Shown here: positions 1 through 10,574 of the stretch, in pieces
Layout of the letters: each line of letters begins with the position of its first letter
How positions within the stretch are numbered: position 1 is the stretch's first letter
UHGV virus genome: UHGV-0338520
Source: a virus
Length of the DNA: 10,574 nucleotides
Reading direction: 5' to 3' (one strand)
The notes under the pieces: model-generated
Seen by the model: the letters and a program-made list of their open reading frames with translations, nothing else
What the model was told of the DNA's origin: nothing
Database searches by the model: none
Made by a program: the position numbers and the translations under genes

Positions 1-1
1 A

Positions 2-88
2 GACGAGAAAGTTGTCGTTTTCGTGATTTCTGTTGGGAAAAGAGAACGCTCGGAAGTATATAGCGAGGCGGTCAAACGCATTCTCTGA
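2..88 (+). CDS. relE: RelE mRNA-interferase toxin, C-terminal fragment (gene begins upstream of the window)
   Basis: Frame starting at nt 2 translates DEKVVVFVISVGKRERSEVYSEAVKRIL then TGA at 86-88; this matches the C-terminus of E. coli RelE as recalled. Synteny with hokD immediately downstream. Confidence 0.85.
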   Translation, partial: DEKVVVFVISVGKRERSEVYSEAVKRIL

Positions 89-159
89 ACCAAAGCATGA
101 CATCTCTGTTTCGCACCGAAGGTGACACTTCTGCTTTGCGTTGACAGGAGAAGCAGGCT

Positions 160-315
160 ATGAAGCAGCAAAAGGCGATGTTAATCGCCCTGATCGTCAT
201 CTGTTTAACCGTCATAGTGACGGCACTGGTAACGAGGAAAGACCTCTGCGAGGTACGAATCCGAACCGGCCAGACGGAGGTCGCTGTCTTCACAGCTTAC
301 GAACCTGAGGAGTAA
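160..315 (+). CDS. hokD: Hok/Gef-family type I membrane toxin (HokD/RelF), 51 aa
   Basis: ATG 160 to TAA 313-315 translates MKQQKAMLIALIVICLTVIVTALVTRKDLCEVRIRTGQTEVAVFTAYEPEE, the Hok-family signature. AGGAG at 145-149 upstream. Only 71 nt after the relE stop, consistent with the relBE-hokD operon. Not in the ORF track because it is under 60 aa. Confidence 0.9.
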   Translation: MKQQKAMLIALIVICLTVIVTALVTRKDLCEVRIRTGQTEVAVFTAYEPEE

Positions 316-384
316 GAGACTCGGCGAGTGAGAAATCCCTCGCCACCTCTGATGTGGCAGGCATCCTCAACGCACCCGCACTTA

Positions 385-410
385 ACCCGCTTCGGCGGGT
401 TTTTGTTTTT
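385..410 (+). terminator. Rho-independent terminator after hokD
   Basis: Stem acccgc (385-390), loop ttcg, stem gcgggt (395-400), followed by tttttgttttt. Confidence 0.6.
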
Positions 411-531
411 ATTTTCAACGCATTTGAAGTTCTGGATGGTGCCGGAATAGAATCAAAAATACTTAAGTAGTGCGCAGGGATAAGAGGGATGGTCCCTTAA
501 AGGGGAGAGCTAATTATCCGGAAGGATTCTG

Positions 532-783
532 ATGATGAACATCGAAGAACTGCGTAAAATTTTTTGTGAAGATGGCCTCTATGCTGTGTGCGTTGAAAAT
601 GGAAATATTGCTAGTCATTACCGCATTGTGTGTTTGCAAAAAAATGGGGCTGCGTTAATTAATTATGTGGATGCCCGAGTGACGGACGGATTTATCTTGC
701 GCGACGGTGAGTTTGTCACTTCATTACAGGCATTGAAAGAGATCGGAATAAAAGCTGGCTTTTCTGCTTTTTCAGAAGAATAA
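532..783 (+). CDS. rem: Small prophage protein, Rem-like by position and size (83 aa)
   Basis: ORF with GGAAGGA Shine-Dalgarno 5 nt upstream of ATGATG. Name assigned from the recalled Qin gene order relE-hokD-rem-ydfU and matching length; not verified by alignment. Confidence 0.6.
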   Translation: MMNIEELRKIFCEDGLYAVCVENGNIASHYRIVCLQKNGAALINYVDARVTDGFILRDGEFVTSLQALKEIGIKAGFSAFSEE

Positions 784-849
784 ACTCATCTACAATCTTG
801 CGCGGGGCTGAACTCCCGCTGAGTAACACCGTGCCACCGGAGAAAACCG

Positions 850-1128
850 ATGGCACGCAACGCAAAATATTACAATCATGATAATTCGACCGTTCTTGCC
901 CACACGCACGAGCGGTATTCTCACGCATTTAAGTCAGACTGGTACCAGCATCCCCCATGCACTGAAGAACAGGCCGAATGGCTCATTCAGTGTTACCGCA
1001 GGCGCGGATGCGAGGTTAAAAAAGCCCTTAGCCTCGACTACCGTCACTGGATAATCTCCGTCAGGCTTCCTTACTCCGAACGCCCACCGCGTCCGTCCCG
1101 CACATTCCAGCAACGCATCTGGAGGTAA
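850..1128 (+). CDS. Hypothetical phage protein (92 aa)
   Basis: GGAGA RBS about 6 nt upstream of ATG 850. Stop TAA 1126-1128 lies 1 nt before the GTG start of the next gene, suggesting translational coupling. No family recognised. Confidence 0.55.
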   Translation: MARNAKYYNHDNSTVLAHTHERYSHAFKSDWYQHPPCTEEQAEWLIQCYRRRGCEVKKALSLDYRHWIISVRLPYSERPPRPSRTFQQRIWR

Positions 1129-1129
1129 C

Positions 1130-2176
1130 GTGCGGGTATTACTTCGACCTGTTCTGGTACCGGAACTCGGGCTGGTGATCGTTAAGCCGGGCCGTGAACC
1201 CATGCCGGTATTCCACAATACCCGGTTACTGGTGGAGCCGGAACCGAAAAGCATGCGTAATCTGCCGTCCGGGGTCGTTCCTGGCGCTCGCCAGCCGCTG
1301 GTGGAAGACAAAACATTGCTGCCGTTTTTCAGTAACGCACGGGTGATTCGTGCTGCTGGTGGTGCTGGTGCATTGTCTGACTGGCTGTTGCGCCATATTA
1401 AATCCTGCCAGTGGCCACACGGCGATTATCATCACAGCGAAACCGTCATTCACCGTTATGGTACCGGCGCAATGGTGTTGTGCTGGCACTGCGACAACCA
1501 GCTGCGTGACCAGACATCCGAATCACTCGAGCAACTTGCTCATCAAAACCTGTCAGCATGGATGATTGACGTCATCGGTCACGCAATAAGCGGTACGCAG
1601 GAGCGTGAATTATCTCTGGCTGAATTATCCTGGTGGGCGGTCCGCAATCAGGTGGCGGACGCGCTACCGGAAGTGGTATTACGTCGTTCGCTGGGGTTGC
1701 GTGCGGAAAAAATCCGCTCAATGTACCGTGAAAGCGACATCGTACCGGGAGAGCAGACCGCCACCAGCATACTGAAGCAGCGCACAAAAAATCTTGCGCC
1801 GCTGCCTCACGCCCACCAGCAAAACCCGCCACAGGAAGAGACGGTGGTCAGCATTGCCGTTGATCCTGAGTCTCCGGAATCTTTCATGAAACGACCTAAA
1901 CGTCGCCGCTGGGTTAACGAGAAATACACACGCTGGGTGAAGACACAGCCGTGTGCGTGTTGTGGTAAGCCAGCCGACGATCCCCATCACCTGATTGGTC
2001 ATGGTCAGGGCGGAATGGGGACAAAATCTCACGATATTTTCACGCTACCGCTGTGTCGGGAGCATCACAACGAGCTTCATGCGGATCCTCTGGCGTTCGA
2101 AGAAAAGCATGGTTCTCAGGTTGATTTAATTTTTCGTTTTCTTGATCACGCCTTTGCAACTGGCGTGCTTGGGTAA
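1130..2176 (+). CDS. ydfU: DUF968-family prophage protein (YdfU-like) with Cys/His-rich C-terminal motif
   Basis: GTG start at 1130 preceded by GGAGGT with 4-nt spacing. 348 aa. C-terminal region QPCACCGKPADDPHHLIGHGQGG...LCREHHNELH resembles a zinc-finger/HNH-like motif recalled for DUF968. Synteny with the Qin-type block. Confidence 0.75.
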   Translation: MRVLLRPVLVPELGLVIVKPGREPMPVFHNTRLLVEPEPKSMRNLPSGVVPGARQPLVEDKTLLPFFSNARVIRAAGGAGALSDWLLRHIKSCQWPHGDYHHSETVIHRYGTGAMVLCWHCDNQLRDQTSESLEQLAHQNLSAWMIDVIGHAISGTQERELSLAELSWWAVRNQVADALPEVVLRRSLGLRAEKIRSMYRESDIVPGEQTATSILKQRTKNLAPLPHAHQQNPPQEETVVSIAVDPESPESFMKRPKRRRWVNEKYTRWVKTQPCACCGKPADDPHHLIGHGQGGMGTKSHDIFTLPLCREHHNELHADPLAFEEKHGSQVDLIFRFLDHAFATGVLG

Positions 2177-2188
2177 AAGAGGTGACTG

Positions 2189-2548
2189 ATGCTCATAGAT
2201 TTGGTTTTACCTTACCCGCCGACGGTGAACACTTACTGGCGACGCCGTGGCAGCACATATTTTATCTCGGAGGAGGGAAAGCGTTATCGCCGGGCTGTGG
2301 CGCTTATTGTTCGCCAGCAGCGGCTGAAATTAAGCCTGTCCGGAAGGCTGGCGATAAAGGTGATTGCAGAGCCACCGGATAAGCGTCGTCGCGACCTGGA
2401 CAATATCCTGAAAGCACCGCTGGATGCGCTGACGCATGCGGGAGTGCTCATTGATGACGAGCAGTTTGATGAAATCAATATTGTACGTGGTCAGCCAGTA
2501 TCTGGTGGACGGCTGGGTGTGAAGATTTACAAAATTGAGAGTGAGTGA
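2189..2548 (+). CDS. rusA: RusA-family Holliday junction resolvase
   Basis: 119 aa with AAGAGG RBS. Contains RRRDLDNILKAPLDALTHAGVLIDDEQ, matching the RusA catalytic core (RRRDLDN...DD) as recalled. Usual location in lambdoid nin regions upstream of Q. Confidence 0.85.
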   Translation: MLIDLVLPYPPTVNTYWRRRGSTYFISEEGKRYRRAVALIVRQQRLKLSLSGRLAIKVIAEPPDKRRRDLDNILKAPLDALTHAGVLIDDEQFDEINIVRGQPVSGGRLGVKIYKIESE

Positions 2549-2556
2549 GCGTAAAT

Positions 2557-3108
2557 ATGATATATCCGGAAATTACAGGCAAAAGCGGCGAACATTTACG
2601 CCTGAACACGCTGGAAGCAGTCTGGATCCAGGGGAAATTACGGATGTGGGGGCGGTGGTCGTATATCGGTGGGGGTAAATCCGGAAATATGTTTAACCGG
2701 TTACTGGTTTCGAAAAAGCTGACGAAAACAGCAGTTAATGAGGTTTTACGCAGAATGAAGAAATCCGGGCTGGAAAAACCGGAACTTGAGGCATTTTTTC
2801 GGGATATGACAAGAGGAAAGCAGAAGAGCTGGTTGTCACATTGTACAGACACAGAGGCGTTGATTATTGATCGCGTTATCAGTGAGGTGCTTGGGGAATA
2901 TCCCGGGCTAATCAATGTTCTCCGGCAAAGGTACGAAGGACGGGGAATGAGCAAACTGAAAATGGCCGAAAGGTTAAATGCAGATCATCCTGATTGGTCG
3001 TTGGTTACGTGCAGACGCCGAATTGATCAATGGTTGGGGGTATCTGAATTTATGTTATATGCCCCCATGCGCATGGCTTTTGTTACAGAGAAAAATGTTG
3101 CAAACTGA
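2557..3108 (+). CDS. Putative late-gene antiterminator (Q-like)
   Basis: ATG 2557, with an alternative in-frame GTG at 2545 overlapping the rusA stop. Lies directly downstream of rusA and upstream of a strong terminator, the canonical Q position. Contains a W-G-x-W segment (KLRMWGRWSYIGG...LLVSK) reminiscent of the RWGAW...LITSK segment recalled for Stx-phage Q. Family assignment unverified. Confidence 0.5.
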   Translation: MIYPEITGKSGEHLRLNTLEAVWIQGKLRMWGRWSYIGGGKSGNMFNRLLVSKKLTKTAVNEVLRRMKKSGLEKPELEAFFRDMTRGKQKSWLSHCTDTEALIIDRVISEVLGEYPGLINVLRQRYEGRGMSKLKMAERLNADHPDWSLVTCRRRIDQWLGVSEFMLYAPMRMAFVTEKNVAN

Positions 3109-3186
3109 TCAATAAACTGCTTCAATCCGTATAAGCTTCGCAAAGCTGTATCGCGAGGCGAAACGCAAGTTTTTTTCGCACAAGGA

Positions 3187-3209
3187 AGCCACCGGAAGGT
3201 GGTTTTTTT
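3187..3209 (+). terminator. Rho-independent terminator downstream of the Q-like gene (tR'-like candidate)
   Basis: Stem ccacc (3189-3193), GGAA tetraloop, stem ggtgg (3198-3202), then seven T (3203-3209). Confidence 0.6.
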
Positions 3210-3332
3210 GTGTCCGCGATATACAGTAGCGCAATAAATTCGCTGGTGGTTATTAATACCGTTCTTTCAGCTTGCTGGCTTTTTCTACAAGAGTTATTGG
3301 TGTGTCACGTTAACCGAAAAAGGGAAAAAGAC

Positions 3333-3530
3333 ATGCTAAAACAGCAGGATATGACAGAAACCGCCAGAGTGGTGTTTAATGAATTAAGCGTTACCGAACC
3401 GGCGACAGTCGGGGAGATAGCGCAGAATACTTACCTTTCACGCGAACGCTGCCAGTTAATACTGACCCAGCTGGTTATGGCGGGTCTGGCAGACTATCAG
3501 TTCGGTTGTTACAGACGCCTTCCGCAGTGA
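3333..3530 (+). CDS. Small hypothetical protein (65 aa), possibly winged-helix DNA-binding
   Basis: ATG 3333 preceded by AGGGA with 7-nt spacing. The longer ORF-track start at 3210 has no RBS and begins inside the terminator. Sequence composition is suggestive of a small wHTH fold; this is inference only. Confidence 0.45.
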   Translation: MLKQQDMTETARVVFNELSVTEPATVGEIAQNTYLSRERCQLILTQLVMAGLADYQFGCYRRLPQ

Positions 3531-3557
3531 AGGCTTTTTTATTTGTGGTAAATGGGC

Positions 3558-3588
3558 GGCTGGTGGGTGTTAGGGGCACCCACCAGCC
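3558..3588. repeat. Perfect 12-bp inverted repeat (stem-loop) between the small ORF and the methyltransferase gene
   Basis: ggctggtgggtg (3558-3569), loop ttagggg, cacccaccagcc (3577-3588). No U-tract follows on either strand, so it is not a canonical intrinsic terminator. Confidence 0.7.
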
Positions 3589-3680
3589 ATCTGCTCATGC
3601 GTTGGGTTCACAAGCAAACCTCAGGCCCACTGCTTTGCGCAAAAGCAGAATGAGCCTATCAGAGACAGGCTTAATGAACC

Positions 3681-4730
3681 ATGCTTAATACTGTAAAAAT
3701 ATCCAGTTGTGAGTTAATCAACGCCGACTGCCTGGAATTTATCCGGTCGTTACCCGAAAATTCTGTTGACCTGATAGTCACGGACCCGCCGTACTTTAAA
3801 GTGAAGCCTGAGGGCTGGGATAACCAGTGGAAGGGCGACGATGATTACCTGAAGTGGCTGGACCAGTGTCTGGCGCAGTTCTGGCGGGTGCTGAAACCTG
3901 CCGGAAGTCTTTACCTGTTCTGTGGTCATCGCCTGGCATCTGATATCGAAATCATGATGCGTGAACGCTTCAGTGTGCTGAACCATATTATCTGGGCGAA
4001 GCCGTCCGGATGCTGGAACGGATGCAACAAGGAAAGCCTGCGGGCGTATTTCCCCGCCACAGAGCGCATTCTGTTCGCGGAACATTATCAGGGGCCGTAT
4101 CGTCCGAAAGATGCCGGGTATGAGGCGAAGGGCAGGGCACTGAAACAGCATGTGATGGCCCCGCTGATTTCTTACTTTCGTGATGCGCGCGCGGCCCTGG
4201 GGATAACGGCAAAACAGATTGCAGATGCCACAGGAAAGAAAAACATGGTGTCGCACTGGTTCAGTGCCAGTCAGTGGCAGCTACCGAACGAAAGCGATTA
4301 TCTGAAATTACAGTCGCTGTTTGCCCGGGTGGCAGAAGAGAAACATCAGCGGGGAGAACTGGAAAAGTCCCATTACCAACTGGTCAGCACATACAGTGAG
4401 CTGAACCGGCAGTATACGGAACTGCAGAGTGAATATAAGCATCTGCGGCGGTATTTTGGCGTGACGGCGCAGGTGCCGTACACGGATGTGTGGACGCATA
4501 AACCGGTGCAGTACTATCCAGGGAAACATCCGTGCGAAAAACCGGCAGAAATGCTGCAGCAGATAATCAGCGCAAGTAGTCGTCCTGGTGATCTGGTTGC
4601 GGATTTTTTCATGGGGTCGGGTTCAACGGTAAAAGCGGCGATGGCACTGGGGCGTCGTGCGATTGGTGTTGAGCTGGAGACCGGACGTTTTGAGCAGACA
4701 GTCAGGGAAGTTCAGGATTTAATCGTTTGA
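3681..4730 (+). CDS. DNA methyltransferase, beta-class amino-methyltransferase (N6-adenine or N4-cytosine); orphan
   Basis: 349 aa. Motif IV DPPY near the N-terminus (IVTDPPYFKV) and motif I FxGxG near the C-terminus (FFMGSGSTVKAAMALGRRAIGVE), the beta-class order. No adjacent endonuclease-like ORF. Confidence 0.88.
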   Translation: MLNTVKISSCELINADCLEFIRSLPENSVDLIVTDPPYFKVKPEGWDNQWKGDDDYLKWLDQCLAQFWRVLKPAGSLYLFCGHRLASDIEIMMRERFSVLNHIIWAKPSGCWNGCNKESLRAYFPATERILFAEHYQGPYRPKDAGYEAKGRALKQHVMAPLISYFRDARAALGITAKQIADATGKKNMVSHWFSASQWQLPNESDYLKLQSLFARVAEEKHQRGELEKSHYQLVSTYSELNRQYTELQSEYKHLRRYFGVTAQVPYTDVWTHKPVQYYPGKHPCEKPAEMLQQIISASSRPGDLVADFFMGSGSTVKAAMALGRRAIGVELETGRFEQTVREVQDLIV

Positions 4731-4779
4731 AACGGATGAGATTGCAGAATTAATTACGCACCATTATTATTCTGCTCCC

Positions 4780-4855
4780 GGCCCTTTAGCTCAGTGGTGA
4801 GAGCGAGCGACTCATAATCGCCAGGTCGCTGGTTCAAATCCAGCAAGGGCCACCA
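4780..4855 (+). tRNA. tRNA with anticodon CAT; ileX/ileZ-like tRNA-Ile2 (lysidine) by similarity, formally Met by anticodon
   Basis: Cloverleaf read by eye: acceptor ggccctt/aagggcc, D-stem gctc/gagc, anticodon loop ctCATaa (CAT at 4813-4815), T-arm gctgg-ttcaaat-ccagc, discriminator A and encoded CCA. Closely resembles E. coli ileX as recalled. Confidence 0.85.
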
Positions 4856-4957
4856 TCACAAACCGCCATTAGCTTATCAGGAAGAGCAGACGACACGATA
4901 ACAGGGTTGTTGGTGCGGGGGGGCTGGTCCCCGATGGCGGTCCATTATCGGTATTCA

Positions 4958-5034
4958 GCGTTGTTAGCTCAGCCGGACAGAGCAATTGCCTTCTAAGCAA
5001 TCGGTCACTGGTTCGAATCCAGTACAACGCGCCA
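4958..5034 (+). tRNA. tRNA-Arg (anticodon TCT, reads AGA/AGG)
   Basis: Acceptor gcgttgt/acaacgc, D-stem gctc/gagc, anticodon stem attgc/gcaat with loop ctTCTaa, T-arm cactg-gttcgaatc-cagt, discriminator G and encoded CCA. Confidence 0.88.
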
Positions 5035-5171
5035 TATTCATCCTTCCAGATTCCTTCCGGCAGAGCCTTATACTGGAATATACCTGGCTCAGGATATTGT
5101 TGAAAATATTATATGTTTGTCAAAAATAAAAGTTCTGTTAAGTATTGATTGAGTGTTTGTTATACGGTCTA

Positions 5172-5498
5172 ATGGTTTTTTCAGTATTAAATATTTATCA
5201 TTCATATGGTGTGGGTAGAGTGAATATTGATGGGGCGTCGGGGTGTTTCATCCTTAGGCAGCGTATTGATATAGTCAATGCAGCACGAGCAAAGGCCTTC
5301 AGCCGTTTTACAGTTTTGTTCTGTACTCCTGATCGTCTTTCGGGAAGAGACGTTATTATTCTGAATAGTGATGCTATACAGAGGGTTTGCGATGAGTTCA
5401 TGGTTGCTAATTCAGAATTATTTGCTCTTGTTCAGGAGTACAACAGAATAGCCAGGACCTGTGGTATGGATGAACTTCGGATTACTCATCTGGGGTAG
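5172..5498 (+). CDS. Hypothetical cargo protein (about 108 aa; start uncertain, alternatives TTG 5145 or GTG 5220)
   Basis: Longest ORF in an AT-rich island. Protein-like composition, no recognisable family and no strong RBS. Nine of 108 codons are ATA/AGA/AGG. Confidence 0.45.
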   Translation: MVFSVLNIYHSYGVGRVNIDGASGCFILRQRIDIVNAARAKAFSRFTVLFCTPDRLSGRDVIILNSDAIQRVCDEFMVANSELFALVQEYNRIARTCGMDELRITHLG

Positions 5499-5889
5499 AT
5501 ACATATCTGGATTATCACCTGTTACGGTAAAAAGTGATAGCTTACTGTTTTTGTGAATGGCATTGCAGCAGCCGGATAATGTCAGTGCTGGCTGACGGTG
5601 TGCTGGTGGCGGGTGTGGTGGTTGTTGCTTTCCCGTTGCTGAAAAAGAAAACGCCAGACTGTTAGCCGGGTATCAGTTAGCGGGAGAAATTTTTAAATAC
5701 TTCACAATTCAGGCGGTTGACTGTTGTCTGGTTTGCGGGGAGTTTGTTAAAAGAAACTGGCATGGTGAATCCCCCTGTGCGGAGGGGCAATCAGCGAGTA
5801 GGTATATGGGATAATCGCGGATTCAGGTGCTGGTACTGAATTCACCGGGAGGCACCCGGCACCATGCAATGGCACATAGCGCCACTCTC

Positions 5890-5918
5890 CAGCCCCTCTC
5901 CGGAGGGGCTGTTTATAT
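5890..5918 (+). terminator. Rho-independent terminator inside the cargo island
   Basis: Perfect 9-bp stem cagcccctc (5890-5898), loop tccg, gaggggctg (5903-5911), followed by tttatattgatttt. Confidence 0.6.
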
Positions 5919-5945
5919 TGATTTTGTCAGATGTGAGTAAACTCC

Positions 5946-6281
5946 TTATGGACTTTGTTGTTTTAGCCCATAAGGACATATTTGCAGAGTGCAACGGTTA
6001 TTAAAGCATTCATTCAATACGTTATCTGTATTTGTAGGGCATTCCTGGCTGTTTTTGATTAAATTCCAGAATGTTTTATTGAATGGTACTACGTTGTAAA
6101 TGGTTACAGGTAGCACTTTGTTATTGAGCATGATACCTGTGTGAGTCAGTGTAAATATACTTTCAGGAGGTAAGAAAGCATCCGATTGATACCAGATTAT
6201 TAATTTTATTTTACTCCATATGACTGAAAAAGATATTCCGCATGATGGCTGGATAACTGTATCAATCACAATCCACTTCAT
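5946..6281 (-). CDS. Hypothetical cargo protein (111 aa) on the opposite strand to the late operon
   Basis: Minus-strand ORF with AAGGAA Shine-Dalgarno about 7 nt upstream of its ATG. Six ATA codons, five Cys, no recognisable family. It is one of only two supported minus-strand genes in the window. Confidence 0.55.
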
Positions 6282-6321
6282 TTAGTTTCCTTGTTTATGC
6301 CTTGCTGGTGATGTTCTGAAA

Positions 6322-6348
6322 AGTATAAATGATATTTTTGATTGTAAA
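6322..6348 (-). promoter_or_regulatory. Candidate sigma70 promoter for the minus-strand cargo gene
   Basis: On the minus strand: TTTACA (plus 6343-6348), 15-nt spacer, TATACT (plus 6322-6327), about 40 nt upstream of the RBS. Sits in a very AT-rich 245-bp divergent intergenic region. The spacer is short, so this is weak. Confidence 0.3.
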
Positions 6349-6541
6349 CCATAGAGCAGAATTATTTTTCTGATGTTGTTTATTGTTTATTTAAATGCAG
6401 GGTGGTTTATATCTCGTCTTGTAGTTTATCCATGCATATCTGCTTGATGATGAGGTTTTTATTTAAGGTATGGTTTTGTGTTTTTTCTGTATTACATGTC
6501 AGGTATTTTAAAGAATCATTTTTCAGATGGTGGAAAGAACC

Positions 6542-6730
6542 ATGGCATTTAAACACTATGATGTTGTCAGGGCGGCGTCGCCGTCAGATCTTGCGGAAAA
6601 GCTGACACATAAACTGAAAGAGGGCTGGCAGCCGTTTGGTAGTCCGGTGGCCATAACCCCTTATACCCTGATGCAGGCGATTGCAGCAGAAGGTGATGTG
6701 GTGGTCAGTGGTGCAACTGAGCCGGAGTGA
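6542..6730 (+). CDS. Small conserved-looking phage protein upstream of the holin (62 aa from ATG 6542)
   Basis: ORF-track ORF 6527-6730; the second ATG at 6542 has a GGTGGAAAG RBS-like sequence upstream. Sequence MAFKHYDVVRAASPSDLAEKLTHKLKEGWQPFG... is protein-like; family not confidently recalled. Confidence 0.5.
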   Translation: MAFKHYDVVRAASPSDLAEKLTHKLKEGWQPFGSPVAITPYTLMQAIAAEGDVVVSGATEPE

Positions 6731-6974
6731 TACTACGTCATCGTACTGGCCCGGCATTCCAGGCCATAAAAGACGGTCTGGCAGTGGGACTAAATGCACT
6801 GACGCTGACGGATATTACCAAAAATGCAACGTATGGCGTTGAGATAGAAAGTCTGGTGCTGGAGATAAATGCACCGGCATCATCATAAAAAGTGAGCCAG
6901 TCAAATGGAAGGTATCGTTAAACTCACCGGTAGTGTCAGTGGGTCGTCTGAGACGCCTGCATGAGTTATCAGAG

Positions 6975-7005
6975 CCATCAGTACTTAACTGGTGGCTTTT
7001 TTATT
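6975..7005 (+). terminator. Terminator-like hairpin about 35 nt upstream of the holin start
   Basis: Stem ccatcagt (6975-6982), loop actta, stem actggtgg (6988-6995) with one G-U pair, then c and ttttttatt. Confidence 0.4.
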
Positions 7006-7037: not shown

Positions 7038-7253
7038 ATGTACCAGATGGAAAAAATCACAACAGGTGTGTCATACACCACGTCAGCGGTGGGAACGGGC
7101 TACTGGTTCCTGCAGTTGCTGGACAGGGTTTCCCCGTCTCAGTGGGCGGCAATAGGCGTGCTGGGGAGTCTGCTGTTTGGGCTGCTGACATATCTGACTA
7201 ACCTGTATTTCAAAATCAAAGAGGACCGGCGTAAGGCGGCGCGGGGAGAGTAA
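7038..7253 (+). CDS. Class II pinholin, phage 21 S-like, with dual start (Met1 antiholin, Met4 holin)
   Basis: Translation [71 protein letters not shown] (71 aa) closely matches S21 as recalled (...[25 protein letters not shown]...[20 protein letters not shown]). GGAG RBS. The ORF-track start at 6933 is an upstream extension. Confidence 0.9.
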
Positions 7254-7257
7254 AGTG

Positions 7258-8148
7258 ATGAATAAAAAATATGAACTGGTTGTTAAGGGGATAAATAATT
7301 ACGGGGATAAGGTTACTGTTACTGTGAAGCCGGAAGGTGACGGGCAAGCGTCGCTGTTGTTGCCAGATGTGGCGATTAGTCTTGACCGTACTGAAGGTGC
7401 CACGCTGGAGTTTTACGAAGCTGAGGCGAAAAAGCAGGCGAAGCAGTTTTTCATGGATGTTGCTGCCGGGTTATGTGAAGGGGATGGTCCGTTGCCGGAA
7501 AAGCGCCCCGTAATTTTAGAGGCGCAGGATGTGTTGATAACCTACAAAGGAAAGCTACCGGGAAGAATTACTTGTTCTCTGAAGATGCCGCCGTCAACAC
7601 TGCGGTCAGAAAAAGATGATGTTGAATCACGTATTGAAAAACTGGAGAGCTACGTCGTTGAGCTGAATAAGAAATGGTCGATATTGGTGCCTTCTGGCGA
7701 TGAAAAGCAGTTTGCTGCGTTTGACGATTATTGTCGGAAAGTGATGAGCAGAAATCTCGCAGAGTGTTTCAGTATTCATAATGATAATTTCAGTGACCCG
7801 GAATGGGAGTGTAACCGGCCATCCTTTGTTGTATCCGGTGATGCTGGGAAAATAACCATCTCAGAAAATGGGAAAGTAACACCTCCATCGCACCAGCACA
7901 GTGAGGAGCTCATTGAATTTGCCATTGATTACCTGAAGAACAATAAAAAGCAGGGGCTGATGAAGCGCGTTGGCCGTTGCATGGGATATCTGCAGGTAGC
8001 TGCTGAGATTGAAGCGCTGGCCAGTGGTGCTGATAAGGATGCAATTGTGCGGGAGGCTCTTCTTCGTGATTTTAATACTCCACCCTTTAAAAAAGTGCCG
8101 GCTTACTGGCTTCATCCGGGGCTGACTTATCTTAAAGTGCGTATTTAG
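7258..8148 (+). CDS. Hypothetical soluble protein (296 aa) inserted between pinholin and endolysin
   Basis: GGGAGAG RBS 7 nt upstream of ATG 7258; start lies 4 nt after the holin stop. No transmembrane segments or catalytic motifs recognisable by eye. Confidence 0.75.
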   Translation: MNKKYELVVKGINNYGDKVTVTVKPEGDGQASLLLPDVAISLDRTEGATLEFYEAEAKKQAKQFFMDVAAGLCEGDGPLPEKRPVILEAQDVLITYKGKLPGRITCSLKMPPSTLRSEKDDVESRIEKLESYVVELNKKWSILVPSGDEKQFAAFDDYCRKVMSRNLAECFSIHNDNFSDPEWECNRPSFVVSGDAGKITISENGKVTPPSHQHSEELIEFAIDYLKNNKKQGLMKRVGRCMGYLQVAAEIEALASGADKDAIVREALLRDFNTPPFKKVPAYWLHPGLTYLKVRI

Positions 8149-8184
8149 TGGGCCAGGGACAGCGGCTGAATATTTAATATATCC

Positions 8185-8718
8185 ATGAACACCAAAATCA
8201 AATACGGCCTGTCGGCTGCCGTTCTGGCGCTGATTGCCGCTGGTGCGCCTGCGCCTGACATTCTCGACCAGTTTCTGGATGAAAAGGAAGGTAACCACAC
8301 CACGGCATACCGTGATGGTGCGGGTATCTGGACCATCTGCCGCGGTGCCATCCTGGTGGATGGCAAACCTGTCGTTCCGGGCATGAAGTTGTCGAAGGAA
8401 AAATGCGACCGGGTTAACGCCATTGAGCGTGATAAGGCGCTGGCATGGGTGGAGAAAAACATCAGAGTGCCATTGAGTGAACCCCAGAAAGCGGGGATCG
8501 CGTCATTCTGTCCGTACAACATTGGTCCCGGTAAGTGTTTCCCGTCGACGTTTTATAAACGAATTAATGCAGGTGATCGCAGGGGAGCGTGTGAGGCGAT
8601 TCGCTGGTGGATTAAGGACGGTGGCAGAGACTGCCGTATTCGTTCAAACAACTGCTACGGTCAGGTATCCCGTCGTGACCAGGAGAGCGCGCTGGCGTGC
8701 TGGGGAATCGACAGATAA
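8185..8718 (+). CDS. SAR endolysin (T4-lysozyme-like muramidase, R21-type)
   Basis: 177 aa. N-terminal Gly/Ala-rich weakly hydrophobic SAR segment GLSAAVLALIAAGAPAP. Catalytic triad spacing E35-x8-D44-x5-T50 (EGNHTTAYRDGAGIWT), identical in position to R21 as recalled. C-terminal lysozyme-like region. Confidence 0.9.
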   Translation: MNTKIKYGLSAAVLALIAAGAPAPDILDQFLDEKEGNHTTAYRDGAGIWTICRGAILVDGKPVVPGMKLSKEKCDRVNAIERDKALAWVEKNIRVPLSEPQKAGIASFCPYNIGPGKCFPSTFYKRINAGDRRGACEAIRWWIKDGGRDCRIRSNNCYGQVSRRDQESALACWGIDR

Positions 8719-8808
8719 GCAGAATATTTTGCTGAAAAATAAGGTATGGCCACGCGGGCGGATAACACGAAATCCTGCGAACTGGCGAAACGTAAGTGAA
8801 TAAAAGTA

Positions 8809-8847
8809 AAAACCCCGTTTGTTGGCACCAAGCGGGGTTTTGTGTTT
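8809..8847 (+). terminator. Terminator-like hairpin between endolysin and Rz
   Basis: 9-bp perfect inverted repeat aaaaccccg (8809-8817) and cggggtttt (8833-8841) around a 15-nt loop, followed by T-rich gtgtttcc. Confidence 0.4.
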
Positions 8848-8877
8848 CCTGACTCCGGAAAAGTCAAAGGAGAAAGT

Positions 8878-9015
8878 GTGTTTGATTTTAGCAAACTGAT
8901 TCGGGAGATTCGAGTGATGGCTGAAAAATTATCCACCTGGAAGTTCATTCTTATCTGGCTGGTGTTTGTGATTATGGCCTCCGGTTATTTCATCGGTCAG
9001 ATACGCTGGTGGTGA
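8878..9015 (+). CDS. Small single-pass membrane protein candidate (45 aa from GTG 8878, or 32 aa from ATG 8917)
   Basis: AAAGGAG RBS 5 nt upstream of in-frame GTG 8878. Translation [45 protein letters not shown]. Stop TGA 9013-9015 is 1 nt before the Rz ATG. Not in the ORF track because it is under 60 aa. Confidence 0.4.
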
Positions 9016-9016
9016 A

Positions 9017-9484
9017 ATGAACCGCGTACTGTGCGTGGTCATCATTGCCCTGCTGGTGGCCTGTGGTGCGCTTAGTCTGGGGCTGAATCATTACCGTGAT
9101 AACGCCATTACCTACAAAGCCCAGCGCGACAAAAATGTCAGAGAACTGAAGCTGGCGAACGCGGCAATTACTGACATGCAGATGCGTCAGCGTGATGTTG
9201 CTGCGCTCGATGCAAAATACACGAAGGAGTTAGCTGATGCGAAAGCTGAAAATGAAACTCTTCGCGCTGACGTTGCCGCTGGTCGTAAGCGCCTGCGTAT
9301 CAACGCCACCTGTCCAGGTCCCGTGCGTGAAGCCACCGGCACCGCCCGCGTGGATAATGCAACCGGCCCCCAACTGGCAGACACCGTTACACGGGATTAT
9401 TTCACCCTCAGAGAGCGGCTGATGACGATGCAGAAGCAACTGGAAGGGGCGCAGGAATATATCCGTACTCAGTGCCTGAAATAA
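9017..9484 (+). CDS. Rz: Rz i-spanin
   Basis: 155 aa. [56 protein letters not shown]... is near-identical to lambda Rz as recalled. N-terminal transmembrane segment. Confidence 0.92.
9237..9422 (+). CDS. Rz1: Rz1 o-spanin lipoprotein, embedded in Rz in the +1 frame
   Basis: [25 protein letters not shown]...[32 protein letters not shown] matches lambda Rz1 as recalled. Lipobox LVVSAC and proline-rich region. Confidence 0.88.
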
Positions 9485-10107
9485 GTTTTGTTGATGCGCC
9501 GTATCGTCGCTGTATTCCCTCATTAACAGAGACCGCAGCCCGACAGGGAGACTCCTCTGCGCGAGTGTGCGGGGATAATCAAAAACGATACACACCGGGG
9601 TTTACCGCGTTAACGGAGCGCGGCGTTGTCCCCTCATAGTCGCCTGTCCGGTGCGATGGTGGAAGAAACCGGATGTTTATCACTATTAATTGATGACACA
9701 GAAATGGATTCATTGAATTTCAGCACGTTTTTGTATTCGTGTTATTGAACATCTGTTTATTTTACTTTTAACATATTGATAATAAAAAGAGCTGTAAATC
9801 TTTAGATGAGTCGATTTTGTCCGGGGAAGTTCAAGTGGATTTTATGCTGACGGTTTCTGGTGTGGTTATCCTGTCCATTGCTTATACTGCAGATAAATAT
9901 GGCTGCCATTTGTTATCACGTATTGGCGCTTATTGTTCGTTGATGCTGATTTTCTCGTCGCTTTTTTTTGAGTAAGTTATATTAATTATAACAAATAATT
10001 TTCTGTGTTATTTTTTCAGGCTATCCCGTCAGAGGGGAAGCCTGTACTGCCGGGGAGCGAATGGAAAACTGATGTGTCCGGTAACTGCGTGTTCTGTGAA
10101 CACCATG

Positions 10108-10367: not shown

Positions 10368-10457
10368 TTAATACGATACCTGCGTCATAATTGATTGTTC
10401 GCTGCATAGCGGTCCGACCCCGTACTGCTCACGCAGCTTATCCAGCAGTGGCATCAT
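10368..10457 (-). pseudogene. Truncated IS3-family OrfB (first about 20 codons, then unrelated sequence and a stop)
   Basis: The -1 frame relative to OrfA gives [20 protein letters not shown] then QSIMTQVSY*. An intact OrfB would be about 290 aa. Confidence 0.5.
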
Positions 10458-10574
10458 TTTTTCCAGAGGCGGTCGAACTCCGCCTTCGCAAAATAAGCGG
10501 AAGCCTGGCGAAGGATATCGTTACTGCGGCGCAGTTCACGATTTTCACGTTCCAGCTCTTTCAGACGCTGACGT
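10395..10574 (-). mobile_element. Truncated IS3-family insertion sequence (IS629/IS1203-like from memory); continues beyond the window end
   Basis: Minus-strand translation ...[39 protein letters not shown] is a typical IS3-family OrfA leucine-zipper C-terminus. An overlapping -1 frame starts [20 protein letters not shown] (OrfB start) but hits a stop after 29 codons, so similarity appears to end near 10395-10398. Confidence 0.6.
10454..10574 (-). CDS. IS3-family transposase OrfA, C-terminal 39 codons (partial; start lies beyond the window)
   Basis: Open minus-strand frame from the window edge to the stop at plus 10454-10456, with an A6 slippery-like run immediately before the stop and the overlapping OrfB ATG. 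Confidence 0.6.

What the first reader, a model, noticed from the sequence alone, without database searches (positions are those of the whole stretch)
8809..9015. Terminator-like hairpin and a small membrane-protein ORF between the endolysin and Rz
Lambda has no gene between R and Rz. Here the roughly 300-bp gap contains a 9-bp-stem hairpin with a T-rich tail and then a 45-codon ORF with a near-ideal AAAGGAG RBS, one predicted transmembrane helix, and a stop 1 nt before the Rz start. Small membrane proteins in lysis cassettes can be antiholins, lysis regulators or exclusion factors. The R-Rz interval is a known moron site in related phages.
Basis: partly seen in the sequence, partly recalled or inferred. 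Interest (0 to 1): 0.5.

Follow-up and report, generated by a model that had tools for sequence, protein, structure and literature searches.

The report
Portable small membrane-peptide cassette in prophages
The hairpin and the 45-codon reading frame between the endolysin and Rz genes are a real, conserved and portable prophage gene cassette that encodes a tiny membrane peptide of unknown role, and sequence conservation suggests it also carries a hidden antisense promoter that may keep the peptide switched off.

Summary
The hairpin (8809-8841) has a 13-pair stem. The 45-codon GTG ORF (8878-9015) follows an AAAGGAG ribosome-binding site and stops 1 nt before the Rz ATG. It encodes one amphipathic helix plus one transmembrane helix.

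Comparison with about 400 related loci changes the picture. Hairpin, roughly 36-nt leader and ORF form one portable unit. It sits between at least six endolysin types and several spanin types, and also inside baseplate, tail and head operons, from E. coli to Actinobacillus and GC-rich hosts. The protein is under purifying selection (pN/pS 0.31). Nine of the 12 hairpin pairs show compensatory changes.

Synonymous sites in codons 1-20 are nearly frozen. On the minus strand the invariant bases spell an extended -10 promoter, TGCTAAAAT (8893-8885). It also survives in GC-rich relatives, where amino-acid changes fall only outside the motif. This predicts an antisense RNA of about 78 nt that covers the ribosome-binding site and ends at the hairpin, a layout like type I toxin-antitoxin or SymE/SymR.

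No expression data exist, and the peptide's function is unknown. The family (phrog_6632) is catalogued but uncharacterised.

The parts
8185..8718 (+). R21-type (SAR-like N-terminus) phage lysozyme; the upstream neighbour, not part of the cassette
   Evidence: PF00959 E 1e-23 and phrog_7 endolysin. PGAP names it lysozyme or rrrQ.
8719..8808 (+). About 90 nt of conserved non-coding spacer that travels with the lysozyme gene; role unknown
   Evidence: Conserved in E. coli prophages that lack the ORF (query 1-158/164/185 matches), in Sakai Sp15 up to the hairpin foot and in Salmonella phage FSL SP-016.
8796..8808 (-). A-rich run on the + strand, which reads as the T-rich tail (TTTTTACTTTTAT) following the hairpin on the minus strand
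   Evidence: Read from the sequence. An equivalent A-run precedes the hairpin in every context examined.
8809..8841 (.). GC-rich hairpin with a 13-pair stem and 7-nt loop; intrinsic-terminator shape on both strands; the 5' boundary of the portable cassette
   Evidence: -18.9 kcal/mol, z -3.0. 9 of 12 consensus pairs have compensatory changes in 44 homologues. It is stable on both strands.
8842..8850 (+). T-rich tail of the hairpin on the + strand (GTGTTTCCT, following the stem's own TTTT)
8845..8873 (+). Leader mini stem-loop in which UUUCCU pairs with AGGAGA of the Shine-Dalgarno sequence (predicted SD sequestration)
   Evidence: MFE fold of 8800-8940. Each leader type has its own short stem just before the SD by inspection (CCTT/AAGG, CGTTA/TAACG, GACT/AGTC). 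RNAalifold did not recover it.
8866..8872 (+). Shine-Dalgarno sequence AAAGGAG for the long form
   Evidence: An SD 5-8 nt before GTG/TTG is kept in all five leader types.
8878..9015 (+). 45-codon ORF (GTG start, TGA stop): [45 protein letters not shown]
   Evidence: phrog_6632 positions 1-45 of 45, E 1e-29. Homologues. pN/pS 0.31. The other five frames carry stops in nearly all homologues.
8903..8907 (+). Internal GGGAG, a candidate SD for the internal start
   Evidence: GGAG at 8904-8907 is invariant in 40 homologues.
8917..9015 (+). Possible 32-aa short form starting at the internal ATG (Met14)
   Evidence: Met14 is invariant, and nearly so in distant relatives. Baseplate-context variants keep only this part (L012/L304, L142, L138).
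8938..9003 (+). Codons 21-42: the predicted transmembrane helix
8885..8893 (-). Predicted extended -10 promoter element, TGCTAAAAT on the minus strand (reverse complement of codons 3-6)
   Evidence: The bases are invariant although they include synonymous sites: GAT 89/89, TTT 72/72, AGC 92/92, AAA 92/92. pS is 0.00 for codons 3-6. The exact motif is kept in GC-rich relatives. A single match in one window is not itself unusual (3 found, 3.1 expected).
8908..8913 (-). Weak -35-like hexamer TCGAAT, 17 nt upstream of the -10 on the minus strand
   Evidence: Read from the sequence. The Arg codon CGA (rare in E. coli, from general knowledge) is used in 91/91 sequences. Only 3 of 6 bases match the consensus.
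8800..8879 (-). Predicted cis-antisense RNA of about 78 nt: 5' end near 8879/8877, contains the anti-SD CUCCUUU, and ends at the hairpin plus U tail
   Evidence: Inferred from the promoter and terminator geometry. The minus-strand fold is -23.2 kcal/mol, z -3.2. No expression data. No Rfam family matches here.
9017..9484 (+). Rz i-spanin, with Rz1 embedded at 9237-9422; the downstream neighbour, whose start lies 1 nt after the small ORF's stop
   Evidence: PF03245 E 4e-51 and phrog_13. Rz1 ORF with a lipobox-like SAC motif.

Best explanation
The feature is a self-contained, horizontally mobile cassette inserted in sense orientation into phage late operons. It has four parts.

(1) A GC-rich hairpin flanked by an A-run and a T-run, which has the shape of a bidirectional intrinsic terminator.

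(2) A leader of about 36 nt with a strong SD that is partly sequestered in a small stem.

(3) A 45-codon gene that starts with GTG or TTG. Its product is a single-pass, N-in inner-membrane peptide made of an amphipathic helix and a TM helix. A conserved internal ATG with its own SD could give a 32-aa form.

(4) An extended -10 promoter on the opposite strand, embedded in codons 3-12.

Proposed mechanism, which is inferred and not shown. The minus-strand promoter constitutively makes an antisense RNA of about 78 nt. This RNA is complementary to the start codon, the SD and the leader, and it stops at the hairpin. In a lysogen three things keep the peptide off: the hairpin blocks read-through into the cassette, the antisense RNA masks the ribosome-binding site, and the start codon is weak. 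Once late transcription, which resists terminators under Q antitermination in this Stx/H-19B-type phage, floods the region, the sense mRNA outnumbers the antisense RNA. The peptide is then made together with the lysis and virion proteins and acts in the cytoplasmic membrane. Because the next gene (here Rz) starts 1 nt after the stop, its translation is probably coupled to that of the small ORF.

What the peptide does in the membrane is unknown. Its frequent position between endolysin and spanin genes, and the layered repression typical of toxic peptides, fit a membrane-perturbing helper or lysis-timing factor.
For: Shown directly.
- Anatomy of the hairpin, SD, ORF and stop.
- The ORF matches phrog_6632 over its full length.
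- Homologues of 45 aa occur in Escherichia, Salmonella, Citrobacter, Enterobacter, Klebsiella, Edwardsiella, Yersinia, Serratia, Sodalis, Izhakiella, Providencia and an Actinobacillus phage, and in loci with 59-60% GC.
- Purifying selection: pN/pS 0.31. The TM half has normal synonymous turnover, with pS 0.77.
- The start codon is GTG or TTG in 309 of 320 instances and never ATG at that position; the other 11 have lost the start or the frame. One GC-rich relative outside that set, L344, starts with ATG.
- The hairpin shows covariation in 9 of 12 pairs.
- The cassette boundary lies at the foot of the hairpin in unrelated contexts.
- Contexts include R21 lysozyme, GH19, Peptidase_M15_4, GH108, CHAP and an unassigned 138-aa lysin upstream, followed by Rz, DUF2570/LysC or other spanins. 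Others are baseplate spike to sheath initiator, a JAB/NlpC-P60 tail gene, DUF2612, and scaffold to head-decoration protein.

Supporting the antisense promoter.
- pS is 0.32 in codons 2-20 against 0.77 in codons 21-45 (Mann-Whitney p = 8e-6), and 0.00 in codons 1, 3-6, 10 and 12.
- The frozen third positions give A-8, A-11 and G-14 of TGnTAnnAT. The one variable base falls at -9.
- The block is flanked on both sides by diverged sequence, namely the leader types and the TM half, so recent transfer does not explain it.
- RNAalifold finds no conserved structure there.
- GC-rich relatives keep TGCTAAAAT exactly, while the amino-acid changes D->N and K->R touch only bases outside the motif.
- The distance from the motif to the hairpin is conserved.
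- Variants that lost the motif also lost the hairpin but kept the 32-codon part.

Precedent. PasB is an 83-nt sRNA validated by Northern blot, encoded antisense in a prophage tail operon, and it ends at a hairpin directly after the upstream gene's stop (PMC8550237 table S6; sequence).
Against: - There is no transcript, start-site, ribosome-profiling or phenotype data for this locus. A search of the Sakai Ribo-seq supplement for the peptide strings found nothing. No paper on the family was found in seven literature searches.
- The -35 element is weak, with 3 of 6 bases matching.
- The promoter scan did not flag the site.
- The -10 pattern alone occurs at the chance rate in one window.
- Frozen 5' codons could instead reflect constraints on translation initiation at two starts.
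- The N-terminal helix is also conserved at the amino-acid level in distant relatives, so part of the conservation is protein-level.
- In this window a U-G pair makes the hairpin stronger on the + strand than on the minus strand.
- One distant relative (L346) has the hairpin but not the exact motif.
- A strong + strand terminator inside baseplate operons, which are not known to be antiterminated, is awkward for the read-through part of the model.
- Toxicity or a role in lysis is pure inference. Related prophages do without the gene.
Confidence: 0.45

Rival explanations
1. An ordinary accessory late gene with no antisense RNA. The hairpin is a transcriptional insulator, a partial terminator or a 3' stabiliser of the upstream message. 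The frozen 5' codons reflect the needs of two overlapping translation-initiation regions (GTG plus SD, then the internal SD plus ATG) and of a functionally important N-terminal helix.
For: - GGAG at 8904-8907 and ATG 8917 are invariant and lie inside the frozen block.
- The N-helix motif SK(L/I)I(R/K)E(L/V)RxM is kept at the protein level in distant relatives.
- The + strand hairpin is at least as stable as the minus-strand one here.
- The -35 element is weak.
Against: - Initiation constraints do not explain why Ser is always AGC, why Arg is always the rare CGA codon, or why GAT and TTT stay T-ending in 59-60% GC genomes.
- They also do not explain why the only tolerated amino-acid changes avoid the 9-base motif.
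- The leader next to the start codon is itself highly variable.
- The hairpin is lost together with codons 1-6 or 1-13 in the deletion variants.
Confidence: 0.3
2. A dedicated lysis accessory factor. The peptide would interact with the pinholin, the SAR endolysin or the spanin to set lysis timing, as an antiholin or pro-holin or as a functional analogue of Lcc6 or releasin.
For: - About half of the independent contexts lie exactly between an endolysin and a spanin gene, across at least six endolysin families and several spanin families.
- The Rz start is 1 nt after the stop.
- The two conserved in-frame starts recall holin/antiholin pairs.
- Small TM proteins are known to be needed for lysis in pinholin/SAR systems: LambdaSo Lcc6 (bioRxiv 10.1101/2024.01.23.576932) and Mu gp25 releasin (PMC9239132, cited there).
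Against: - The same cassette sits in baseplate, tail and head operons far from lysis genes.
- It accompanies non-SAR endolysins and non-pinholin holins.
- It is absent from closely related functional lysis cassettes.
- It has no similarity to holin, DUF2730 or spanin families.
- It has no charged C-terminal tail.
Confidence: 0.25
3. A lysogenic-conversion or superinfection-exclusion moron expressed from the repressed prophage, in the manner of HK97 gp15.
For: It is a small inner-membrane protein that is polymorphic between otherwise similar prophages and is located at classic moron positions in late operons.
Against: - No sense-strand promoter-like site lies between the hairpin and the ORF or elsewhere in 8000-9700, and the leader is only about 36 nt.
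- Conserved sequence starts at the hairpin, so no promoter travels with the cassette.
- A terminator precedes the gene instead of following it.
- There is no PADLOC hit.
Confidence: 0.07
4. The ORF is mainly a translational-coupling leader that delivers ribosomes to Rz (its last codons, TGGTGGTGA, act as the SD for Rz), and its peptide is incidental.
For: - The stop lies 1-3 nt before the next start in many contexts.
- The alternative C-termini encode SD-like strings (…AAGGGGTAG before the next ORF in L254).
Against: - Protein-level purifying selection acts across the TM helix.
- The (R/K)WW end is kept in distant relatives and where no gene follows closely.
- The family occurs without Rz.
Confidence: 0.05
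5. A chance ORF next to the terminator of the endolysin gene.
For: Most GenBank and PGAP annotations omit the ORF.
Against: All the conservation evidence.
Confidence: 0.01

Closest known systems
SymE/SymR of E. coli (a type I toxin-antitoxin-like pair)
   Same: The layout matches what I recall of SymR: the promoter of a short antisense RNA (about 77 nt) lies inside the 5' end of the ORF, and the RNA covers the start codon and SD. This rests on general knowledge.
   Different: SymE is a soluble protein of about 113 aa with an SOS-controlled promoter of its own. Here the product is a 45-aa membrane peptide with no sense promoter. The antisense RNA here is only predicted.
Membrane-peptide type I toxin-antitoxin systems (hok/sok, tisB/istR-1, ldr/rdl, zorO/orzO)
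   Same: A hydrophobic single-TM peptide of under 60 aa, several layers of repression (structured leader, weak start, antisense RNA over the ribosome-binding site), and carriage on mobile elements, sometimes in tandem copies.
   Different: No sequence relationship to these families. There is no toxin promoter, no evidence of toxicity, and the cassette sits in sense orientation inside phage late operons.
Phage P22 sar RNA / ant
   Same: A phage-encoded antisense RNA of about 70 nt that overlaps the ribosome-binding site of a phage gene and limits its translation (general knowledge).
   Different: Different gene, different genomic region (immI) and different regulatory logic. No homology.
PasB sRNA of EPEC prophage PP6 (PMC8550237; bioRxiv 10.64898/2026.05.13.724894)
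   Same: An experimentally detected 83-nt RNA encoded antisense within a prophage late (tail I-J) operon. It ends at a hairpin placed directly after the stop of the upstream late gene.
   Different: Unrelated sequence. It is Hfq-dependent and trans-acting. The opposite strand there holds only an unrelated 22-codon frame, and PasB is restricted to Escherichia and Shigella.
LambdaSo Lcc6 and Mu gp25 releasin
   Same: Small single-TM phage proteins that turned out to be needed for lysis with pinholin/SAR-endolysin systems.
   Different: The domain order is opposite (N-terminal TM with a cytoplasmic tail). They are encoded elsewhere in the genome and are not homologous. The gene here is dispensable in related phages.
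Classical morons (lambda bor/lom, HK97 gp15; Juhala et al. 2000, as cited in PMC4104026)
   Same: Extra DNA between conserved late genes that is present or absent among relatives.
   Different: Morons carry their own sense promoter upstream and a terminator downstream. Here the terminator is upstream and the only promoter-like element points the other way.

Membership tests
phrog_6632 (PHROGs, unknown function) | Full-length profile match | tested here: met
   E 1.2e-29, residues 1-45 against profile positions 1-45 of 45.
Intrinsic (Rho-independent) terminator | GC-rich stem-loop followed by a U-rich tract | tested here: met
   Stem of 13 pairs (6 GC) with a 7-nt loop and a T-rich tail on the + strand. 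On the minus strand a comparable stem is followed by TTTTTACTTTTAT. Covariation in 9 of 12 pairs.
Intrinsic (Rho-independent) terminator | Actually terminates transcription | not testable with these tools
   This needs in vitro or in vivo termination assays in both directions.
Type I toxin-antitoxin system | Small hydrophobic membrane peptide (under about 60 aa) | tested here: met
   45 aa, TM at residues 24-42 (KD 2.13), helices 4-17 and 20-44.
Type I toxin-antitoxin system | Antisense RNA that base-pairs with the toxin mRNA | tested here: inconclusive
   A conserved minus-strand extended -10 element and a terminator at a fixed distance predict such an RNA. There are no expression data, and no Rfam family matches.
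Type I toxin-antitoxin system | Peptide is toxic when over-produced | not testable with these tools
   An experiment is required.
Type I toxin-antitoxin system | Homology to a known toxin family (Hok, Ldr, TisB, Ibs, ShoB and others) | tested here: not met
   No Pfam or NCBIfam hit at E <= 0.01, and only noise at E <= 10.
Moron (sensu Juhala et al. 2000) | Extra gene present or absent between conserved neighbours in related phages | tested here: met
   The lysozyme and Rz genes overlap in K-12 Qin and three EPEC prophages. The slot is occupied by other cargo in Sakai and EDL933.
Moron (sensu Juhala et al. 2000) | Own sense promoter upstream and terminator downstream | tested here: not met
   There is no sense promoter-like site. 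The hairpin lies upstream, and the next gene starts 1 nt after the stop.
Holin / antiholin | Match to a holin family, and a charged hydrophilic C-terminal tail | tested here: not met
   No holin Pfam or PHROG hit, whereas the true S21-type holin at about 7041-7253 hits PF04971. The peptide ends with RWW directly after the TM helix.
Holin / antiholin | Dual-start motif giving two products | tested here: inconclusive
   Two conserved in-frame starts, each with an SD (8878 and 8917), and stand-alone 32-aa variants exist. Use of both starts has not been shown.
Releasin (Mu gp25, DUF2730) / Lcc6 | DUF2730 domain, or an N-terminal TM helix with a cytoplasmic tail | tested here: not met
   No Pfam hit. 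The topology is the reverse.
Known anti-phage defence proteins (PADLOC) | Profile match | tested here: not met
   0 families at E <= 10 for five family members.

The most novel reading that the evidence does not exclude
The cassette is a previously unrecognised, widespread family of antisense-RNA-gated membrane peptides (type I toxin-antitoxin-like) that lives inside phage late operons. The promoter of the antitoxin RNA is written into the first codons of the toxin gene, and the hairpin is the antitoxin's terminator. The peptide is released only when late transcription swamps the antisense RNA, and it helps to collapse the membrane at the end of infection. About one in six complete E. coli genomes, including Stx-phage lysogens, would carry such a switch.
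Probability: 0.35. Interest if true: 0.7.

Novelty: new variant of a known kind. Interest (0 to 1): 0.55.

Why it matters
The gene is usually left unannotated, yet a near-complete copy is present in 899 of 5,426 complete E. coli genomes. These include many Shiga-toxin phage lysogens, and it also occurs in prophages of at least a dozen other genera.

If the antisense-promoter reading is right, this is a compact example of three overlapping codes (protein, promoter and RNA target) in about 40 bp. It would also be a new family of RNA-gated membrane peptides tied to phage late gene expression.

If the peptide affects the timing of lysis in pinholin/SAR-endolysin phages, it bears on phage and Shiga-toxin release, which depends on lysis. 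It would also add to the recent finding that holin, endolysin and spanin are not always the whole lysis machinery (Lcc6, releasin).

Even under the conservative reading, the result gives a clean, testable definition of a portable cassette and a reason to annotate it.

Tried and rejected
- Rfam scan of the whole window on both strands at E <= 1: nothing at 8700-9015.
- Pfam, NCBIfam, PADLOC and PDB sequence searches for the peptide: no meaningful hits. One UniRef name, "DUF2474", on a Sodalis relative was not reproduced by hmmscan.
- The promoter-like site on the minus strand at 9000-8971 lies in the fast-evolving TM codons and is not conserved in FSL SP-016. Rejected.
- The 95-aa antisense ORF (8661-8948), annotated in CP-1639, has stops in nearly all homologues. 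Not a gene.
- A sense-strand promoter inside the cassette: none was found by scan or by eye.
- An antiterminator pairing between AGCAAAC (8890-8896) and GUUUG in the hairpin arm. The hairpin arm varies while AGCAAAC is invariant, so there is no covariation. Rejected by inspection.
- An integron attC-like recombination site: the hairpin has a terminator-type A/T flank and, by eye, no attC core motif such as GTTRRRY (from general knowledge). Rejected by inspection.
- RNAalifold on hairpin, leader and 25 codons: only the hairpin is a consensus structure.
- Literature. Seven completed searches found no paper on this family. The Sakai Ribo-seq supplement, the Tree et al. CRAC supplement and the Pas sRNA supplement contain no matching sequence strings. 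PasB turned out to be a different element with a similar layout. EPEC E2348/69 lacks the cassette in the three lambdoid lysis regions I checked, so I did not look for it in its RIL-seq data.
- My crude energy-based 2x2 test of hairpin against -10 motif was not specific enough. The co-loss statement therefore rests on inspection of the individual variants.
Full report
**1. What is in the window**

The window is the late region of an H-19B/Stx-type lambdoid prophage of E. coli. The stretch around the finding is 100% identical to strain AR_0013 and 96% identical to phage H-19B and many Stx1/Stx2 phages. The gene order is as follows.
- tRNA-Met and tRNA-Arg.
- An STnc100-family RNA at 5731-5920.
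- An S21-type holin at about 7041-7253 (PF04971).
- A 297-aa DUF1327/YdfR-family ORF at 7255-8148.
- An R21-type lysozyme at 8185-8718 (PF00959).
- The finding itself.
- Rz at 9017-9484 (PF03245), with Rz1 embedded at 9237-9422.

**2.

The hairpin is at 8809-8841. Its folding energy is -18.9 kcal/mol, z = -3.0.

The ORF runs from GTG 8878 to TGA 9013-9015. AAAGGAG lies 5 nt before the start. One base separates the stop from the Rz ATG.

The product, [45 protein letters not shown], has one strongly hydrophobic segment at residues 24-42 and a positively charged N-terminal part, which suggests an N-in orientation. AlphaFold2 models it as helix 4-17 plus helix 20-44, with pLDDT 83.

**3. The ORF is a real gene**

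- It matches phrog_6632 end to end, with E 1e-29. Some records annotate it: CP-1639 as CAH23245.1, and PGAP as "hypothetical protein" in some genomes but not in most.
- Salmonella phage FSL SP-016 is only about 72% identical in DNA. It still keeps the hairpin, the SD, the GTG start, all 45 codons and the stop 1 nt before Rz.
- Protein and locus searches found the family in many genera: Escherichia, Salmonella, Citrobacter, Enterobacter, Klebsiella, Trabulsiella, Edwardsiella, Yersinia, Serratia, Izhakiella, Sodalis, Providencia and Cronobacter. It also occurs in an Actinobacillus phage and in viral contigs with 59-60% GC.
- An exhaustive profile search of 1.84 billion representative proteins found only 51 relatives, all 24-86 aa long. 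The family is small, narrow and made entirely of mini-proteins.
- Among 40 distinct 45-codon versions, pN/pS is 0.31. The other two sense frames and all three antisense frames carry stop codons in nearly every homologue. This also removes the 95-aa antisense ORF annotated in CP-1639.
- In complete E. coli genomes, 899 of 5,426 carry at least 80% of hairpin plus ORF.

**4. Hairpin and ORF form one portable unit**

I compared 320 instances from about 330 loci, which gave 94 distinct canonical sequences. Similarity between unrelated genomic contexts begins a few bases before the hairpin and ends at the ORF stop.

In Sakai Sp15 an antirepressor gene and another small TM ORF replace the sequence exactly from the 5' foot of the hairpin. 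The 90 nt between the lysozyme stop and the hairpin (8719-8808) stay with the lysozyme gene. The hairpin therefore belongs to the small ORF, not to R.

The hairpin is a selected structure. In 44 homologues, 9 of the 12 consensus pairs show changes on both sides that keep the pair, for example CCCCG/CGGGG, GCTCCG/CGGAGC, GGCCCAG/CTGGGCC and GCCCGAG/CTCGGGC. It always has an A-run before it and a T-run after it, and it folds about equally well on either strand. That is the shape of a bidirectional terminator.

**5. Contexts**

About half of the independent contexts lie between an endolysin and a spanin gene.
- Upstream lysins: R21-type lysozyme, GH19, Peptidase_M15_4, GH108 with PG_binding_3, CHAP, and an unassigned 138-aa lysin.
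- Downstream spanins: Rz (PF03245), DUF2570 with LysC, or other spanin-like pairs.

The second common site is between the baseplate spike (Apex) and the sheath initiator of myovirus-type prophages.

Other sites are:
- after a lambda-K-like JAB/NlpC-P60 tail gene;
- after a DUF2612 baseplate gene;
- at tail-fibre ends;
- next to IS66;
- in a GC-rich phage, between a scaffold-like gene and a head-decoration gene.

In every case examined the cassette has the same orientation as the surrounding late genes. Related prophages without any insert have overlapping lysozyme and Rz genes.

**6. The unexpected feature: a nucleotide-level freeze of the first third of the gene**

The start codon of the long form is GTG (231 instances) or TTG (78) among the 320 instances and is never ATG there. 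One GC-rich relative outside that set (L344) does start with ATG.

Synonymous diversity is normal in codons 22-43 (0.25-0.67 per codon). It is zero at the following codons.

| Codon | Usage |
|---|---|
| GAT | 89/89 |
| TTT | 72/72 |
| AGC | 92/92 |
| AAA | 92/92 |
| GAG | 92/92 |
| CGA | 91/91 (a rare Arg codon) |

Pairwise pS is 0.32 for codons 2-20 against 0.77 for codons 21-45, while pN is similar. The per-codon Mann-Whitney test gives p = 8e-6.

The frozen block is bordered on one side by a very variable leader, of which there are at least five unrelated types, and on the other by the fast-evolving TM codons. Recent spread therefore cannot explain it. RNAalifold finds no conserved structure in it.

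Read on the minus strand, the invariant bases are TTGCTAAnAT. This is an extended -10 promoter, TGnTAAnAT, at window positions 8893-8885. The frozen third-codon positions supply A-8, A-11 and G-14, and the one variable base falls at -9. A weak -35-like hexamer (TCGAAT or TCGCAA) lies 17 nt upstream and uses the frozen CGA codon.

The strongest single piece of evidence comes from the GC-rich relatives (L333, L334, L343, L344, L345). They keep TGCTAAAAT exactly in 59-60% GC loci, and their amino-acid changes (Asp to Asn, Lys to Arg) touch only bases just outside the motif.

The distance from the motif to the hairpin is constant. A transcript starting about 7 nt downstream, near 8879/8877, would run through the start codon, the SD and the leader. 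It would end at the hairpin and its minus-strand U tail at about 8800. This RNA would be about 78 nt, contain the anti-SD CUCCUUU, and fold into two stem-loops (-23.2 kcal/mol, z -3.2).

Natural deletion variants in baseplate operons have lost the hairpin together with codons 1-6 or 1-13. They keep the internal SD, Met14 and the 32 C-terminal codons. The hairpin thus goes with the putative promoter rather than with the TM peptide.

**7. How it most likely works**

Shown:
- a conserved single-pass membrane peptide gene;
- a conserved hairpin;
- a portable cassette located in late operons;
- extra DNA-level constraint that matches a minus-strand promoter.

Inferred: a constitutive cis-antisense RNA that masks the ribosome-binding site, with the hairpin as its terminator. 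The hairpin would also act as a barrier to read-through from upstream in the lysogen. A further layer is a small leader stem that pairs UUUCCU with the SD, together with the weak start codon.

During lytic growth, antiterminated late transcription would outrun the antisense RNA. The peptide would then be made with the lysis proteins. Rz translation is probably coupled to it, because the stop is 1 nt from the Rz ATG and the last codons, TGGTGGTGA, are SD-like.

What the peptide does is unknown. Layered repression of a tiny hydrophobic peptide is typical of type I toxins, and pinholins and SAR endolysins are triggered by loss of membrane potential. A membrane-perturbing helper of lysis is therefore a reasonable guess, but only a guess.

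The invariant internal Met with its own SD, and the existence of stand-alone 32-aa versions, suggest that two products are made.

**8. Comparison with what is known**

- The layout resembles SymE/SymR (antisense promoter inside the 5' end of the ORF), hok/sok-type systems and P22 sar/ant.
- The nearest experimentally verified neighbour in kind is PasB. This is an 83-nt sRNA encoded antisense in a prophage tail operon that ends at a hairpin right after the upstream gene. It is unrelated in sequence.
- Lcc6 of LambdaSo and Mu releasin show that small TM proteins can be essential for lysis in pinholin/SAR systems. They have the opposite topology and no homology.
- The peptide fails membership tests for known toxin, holin, releasin and defence families. 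It is a member only of the uncharacterised phrog_6632.
- It meets the presence/absence criterion of a moron but not the architecture of promoter, then gene, then terminator.

**9. Verdict**

The finding is real and more interesting than an unannotated ORF, but its function remains unproven. The gene family is already catalogued though uncharacterised. The cassette structure and the embedded antisense promoter appear not to have been described: seven literature searches and Rfam turned up nothing. I rate it a new variant of a known kind (an antisense-gated small membrane peptide) with moderate confidence, and I give it an interest score of 0.55.

Noticed in passing
L254 2923-3486 (also L387 and L389; about 65 E. 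coli viral contigs): In many related prophages the R-Rz gap holds four tightly packed single-TM mini-ORFs in a row: a 44-aa member of this family ending AIKG, the 43-aa MSDKLIT...SGLLG, an ORF of about 38 aa containing ...AFAIKWVAV..., and the 28-aa MSAELIRAMAFAIRIVAIAVLVWAIRWW, which stops 1 nt before Rz. Some of them look like diverged paralogues of one another.
   Followed up: partly
L095 2750-2863 (EDL933 prophage) and L332 2749-2895, minus strand (Sakai Sp15, ECs_5741): Other small TM ORFs occupy the same slot. EDL933 has a 37-aa ORF ending AIRWW 1 nt before Rz, preceded by the same hairpin and leader but with an 8-codon mini-ORF at the usual start. Sakai Sp15 has an antirepressor followed by a 48-aa TM ORF.
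   Followed up: partly
window 8719-8808: About 90 nt of non-coding sequence after the lysozyme stop is conserved in more E. coli genomes than the ORF itself, and also in Salmonella phage FSL SP-016. No function is evident, and a 17-codon frame inside it is not conserved.
   Followed up: partly
window 5731-5920 (+): A strong match to the sRNA family STnc100 (RF02076; 132 bits, E 1e-29). A 2026 preprint relates this family to the prophage sRNA PasD.
   Followed up: no
window 10400-10499 (-): An ALIL pseudoknot (RF01497; 76 bits), the frameshift element of IS3-family transposases. An insertion sequence therefore lies at the right end of the window.
   Followed up: no
window 4780-4855 and 4958-5034 (+): Two tRNA genes, tRNA-Met(CAT) and tRNA-Arg(TCT), sit in the late region upstream of the lysis genes. 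From general knowledge this is typical of Stx-type phages. No stx genes were seen in the part of the window examined (positions 1-7000 were not inspected gene by gene).
   Followed up: no
window 7255-8148 (+): A 297-aa ORF with an N-terminal DUF1327/YdfR domain (phrog_1085) is inserted between the holin and the lysozyme. K-12 Qin has a 103-aa YdfR at the same place. This is another variable slot inside the lysis cassette.
   Followed up: no
L003 2393-2503 (Salmonella phage FSL SP-016): A further unannotated 36-codon hydrophobic ORF (MSKRDVSALCFLMAAAVAISGNDGWGWLIFAGIIIL) overlaps the end of the endolysin gene, upstream of the conserved spacer and cassette.
   Followed up: no
window 8661-8948 (-); L001 2472-2759: The 95-aa antisense ORF annotated as a hypothetical protein in phage CP-1639 is open only in this sequence type and is broken by stops in nearly all homologues. 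It is probably a mis-annotation.
   Followed up: yes
L334 3066-3290: In a GC-rich phage the cassette is followed closely by another small TM ORF (MNAKDAGIVGKRLANAALILATGVAIASIIAAIGVVLG). Pairing of small TM ORFs may therefore be general.
   Followed up: no
window 324-405 (+): A weak sub-threshold match to isrK (RF01394; 20.7 bits, E 0.59). This is probably chance, although from general knowledge isrK-like RNAs do occur near Q genes in Gifsy-type prophages.
   Followed up: no
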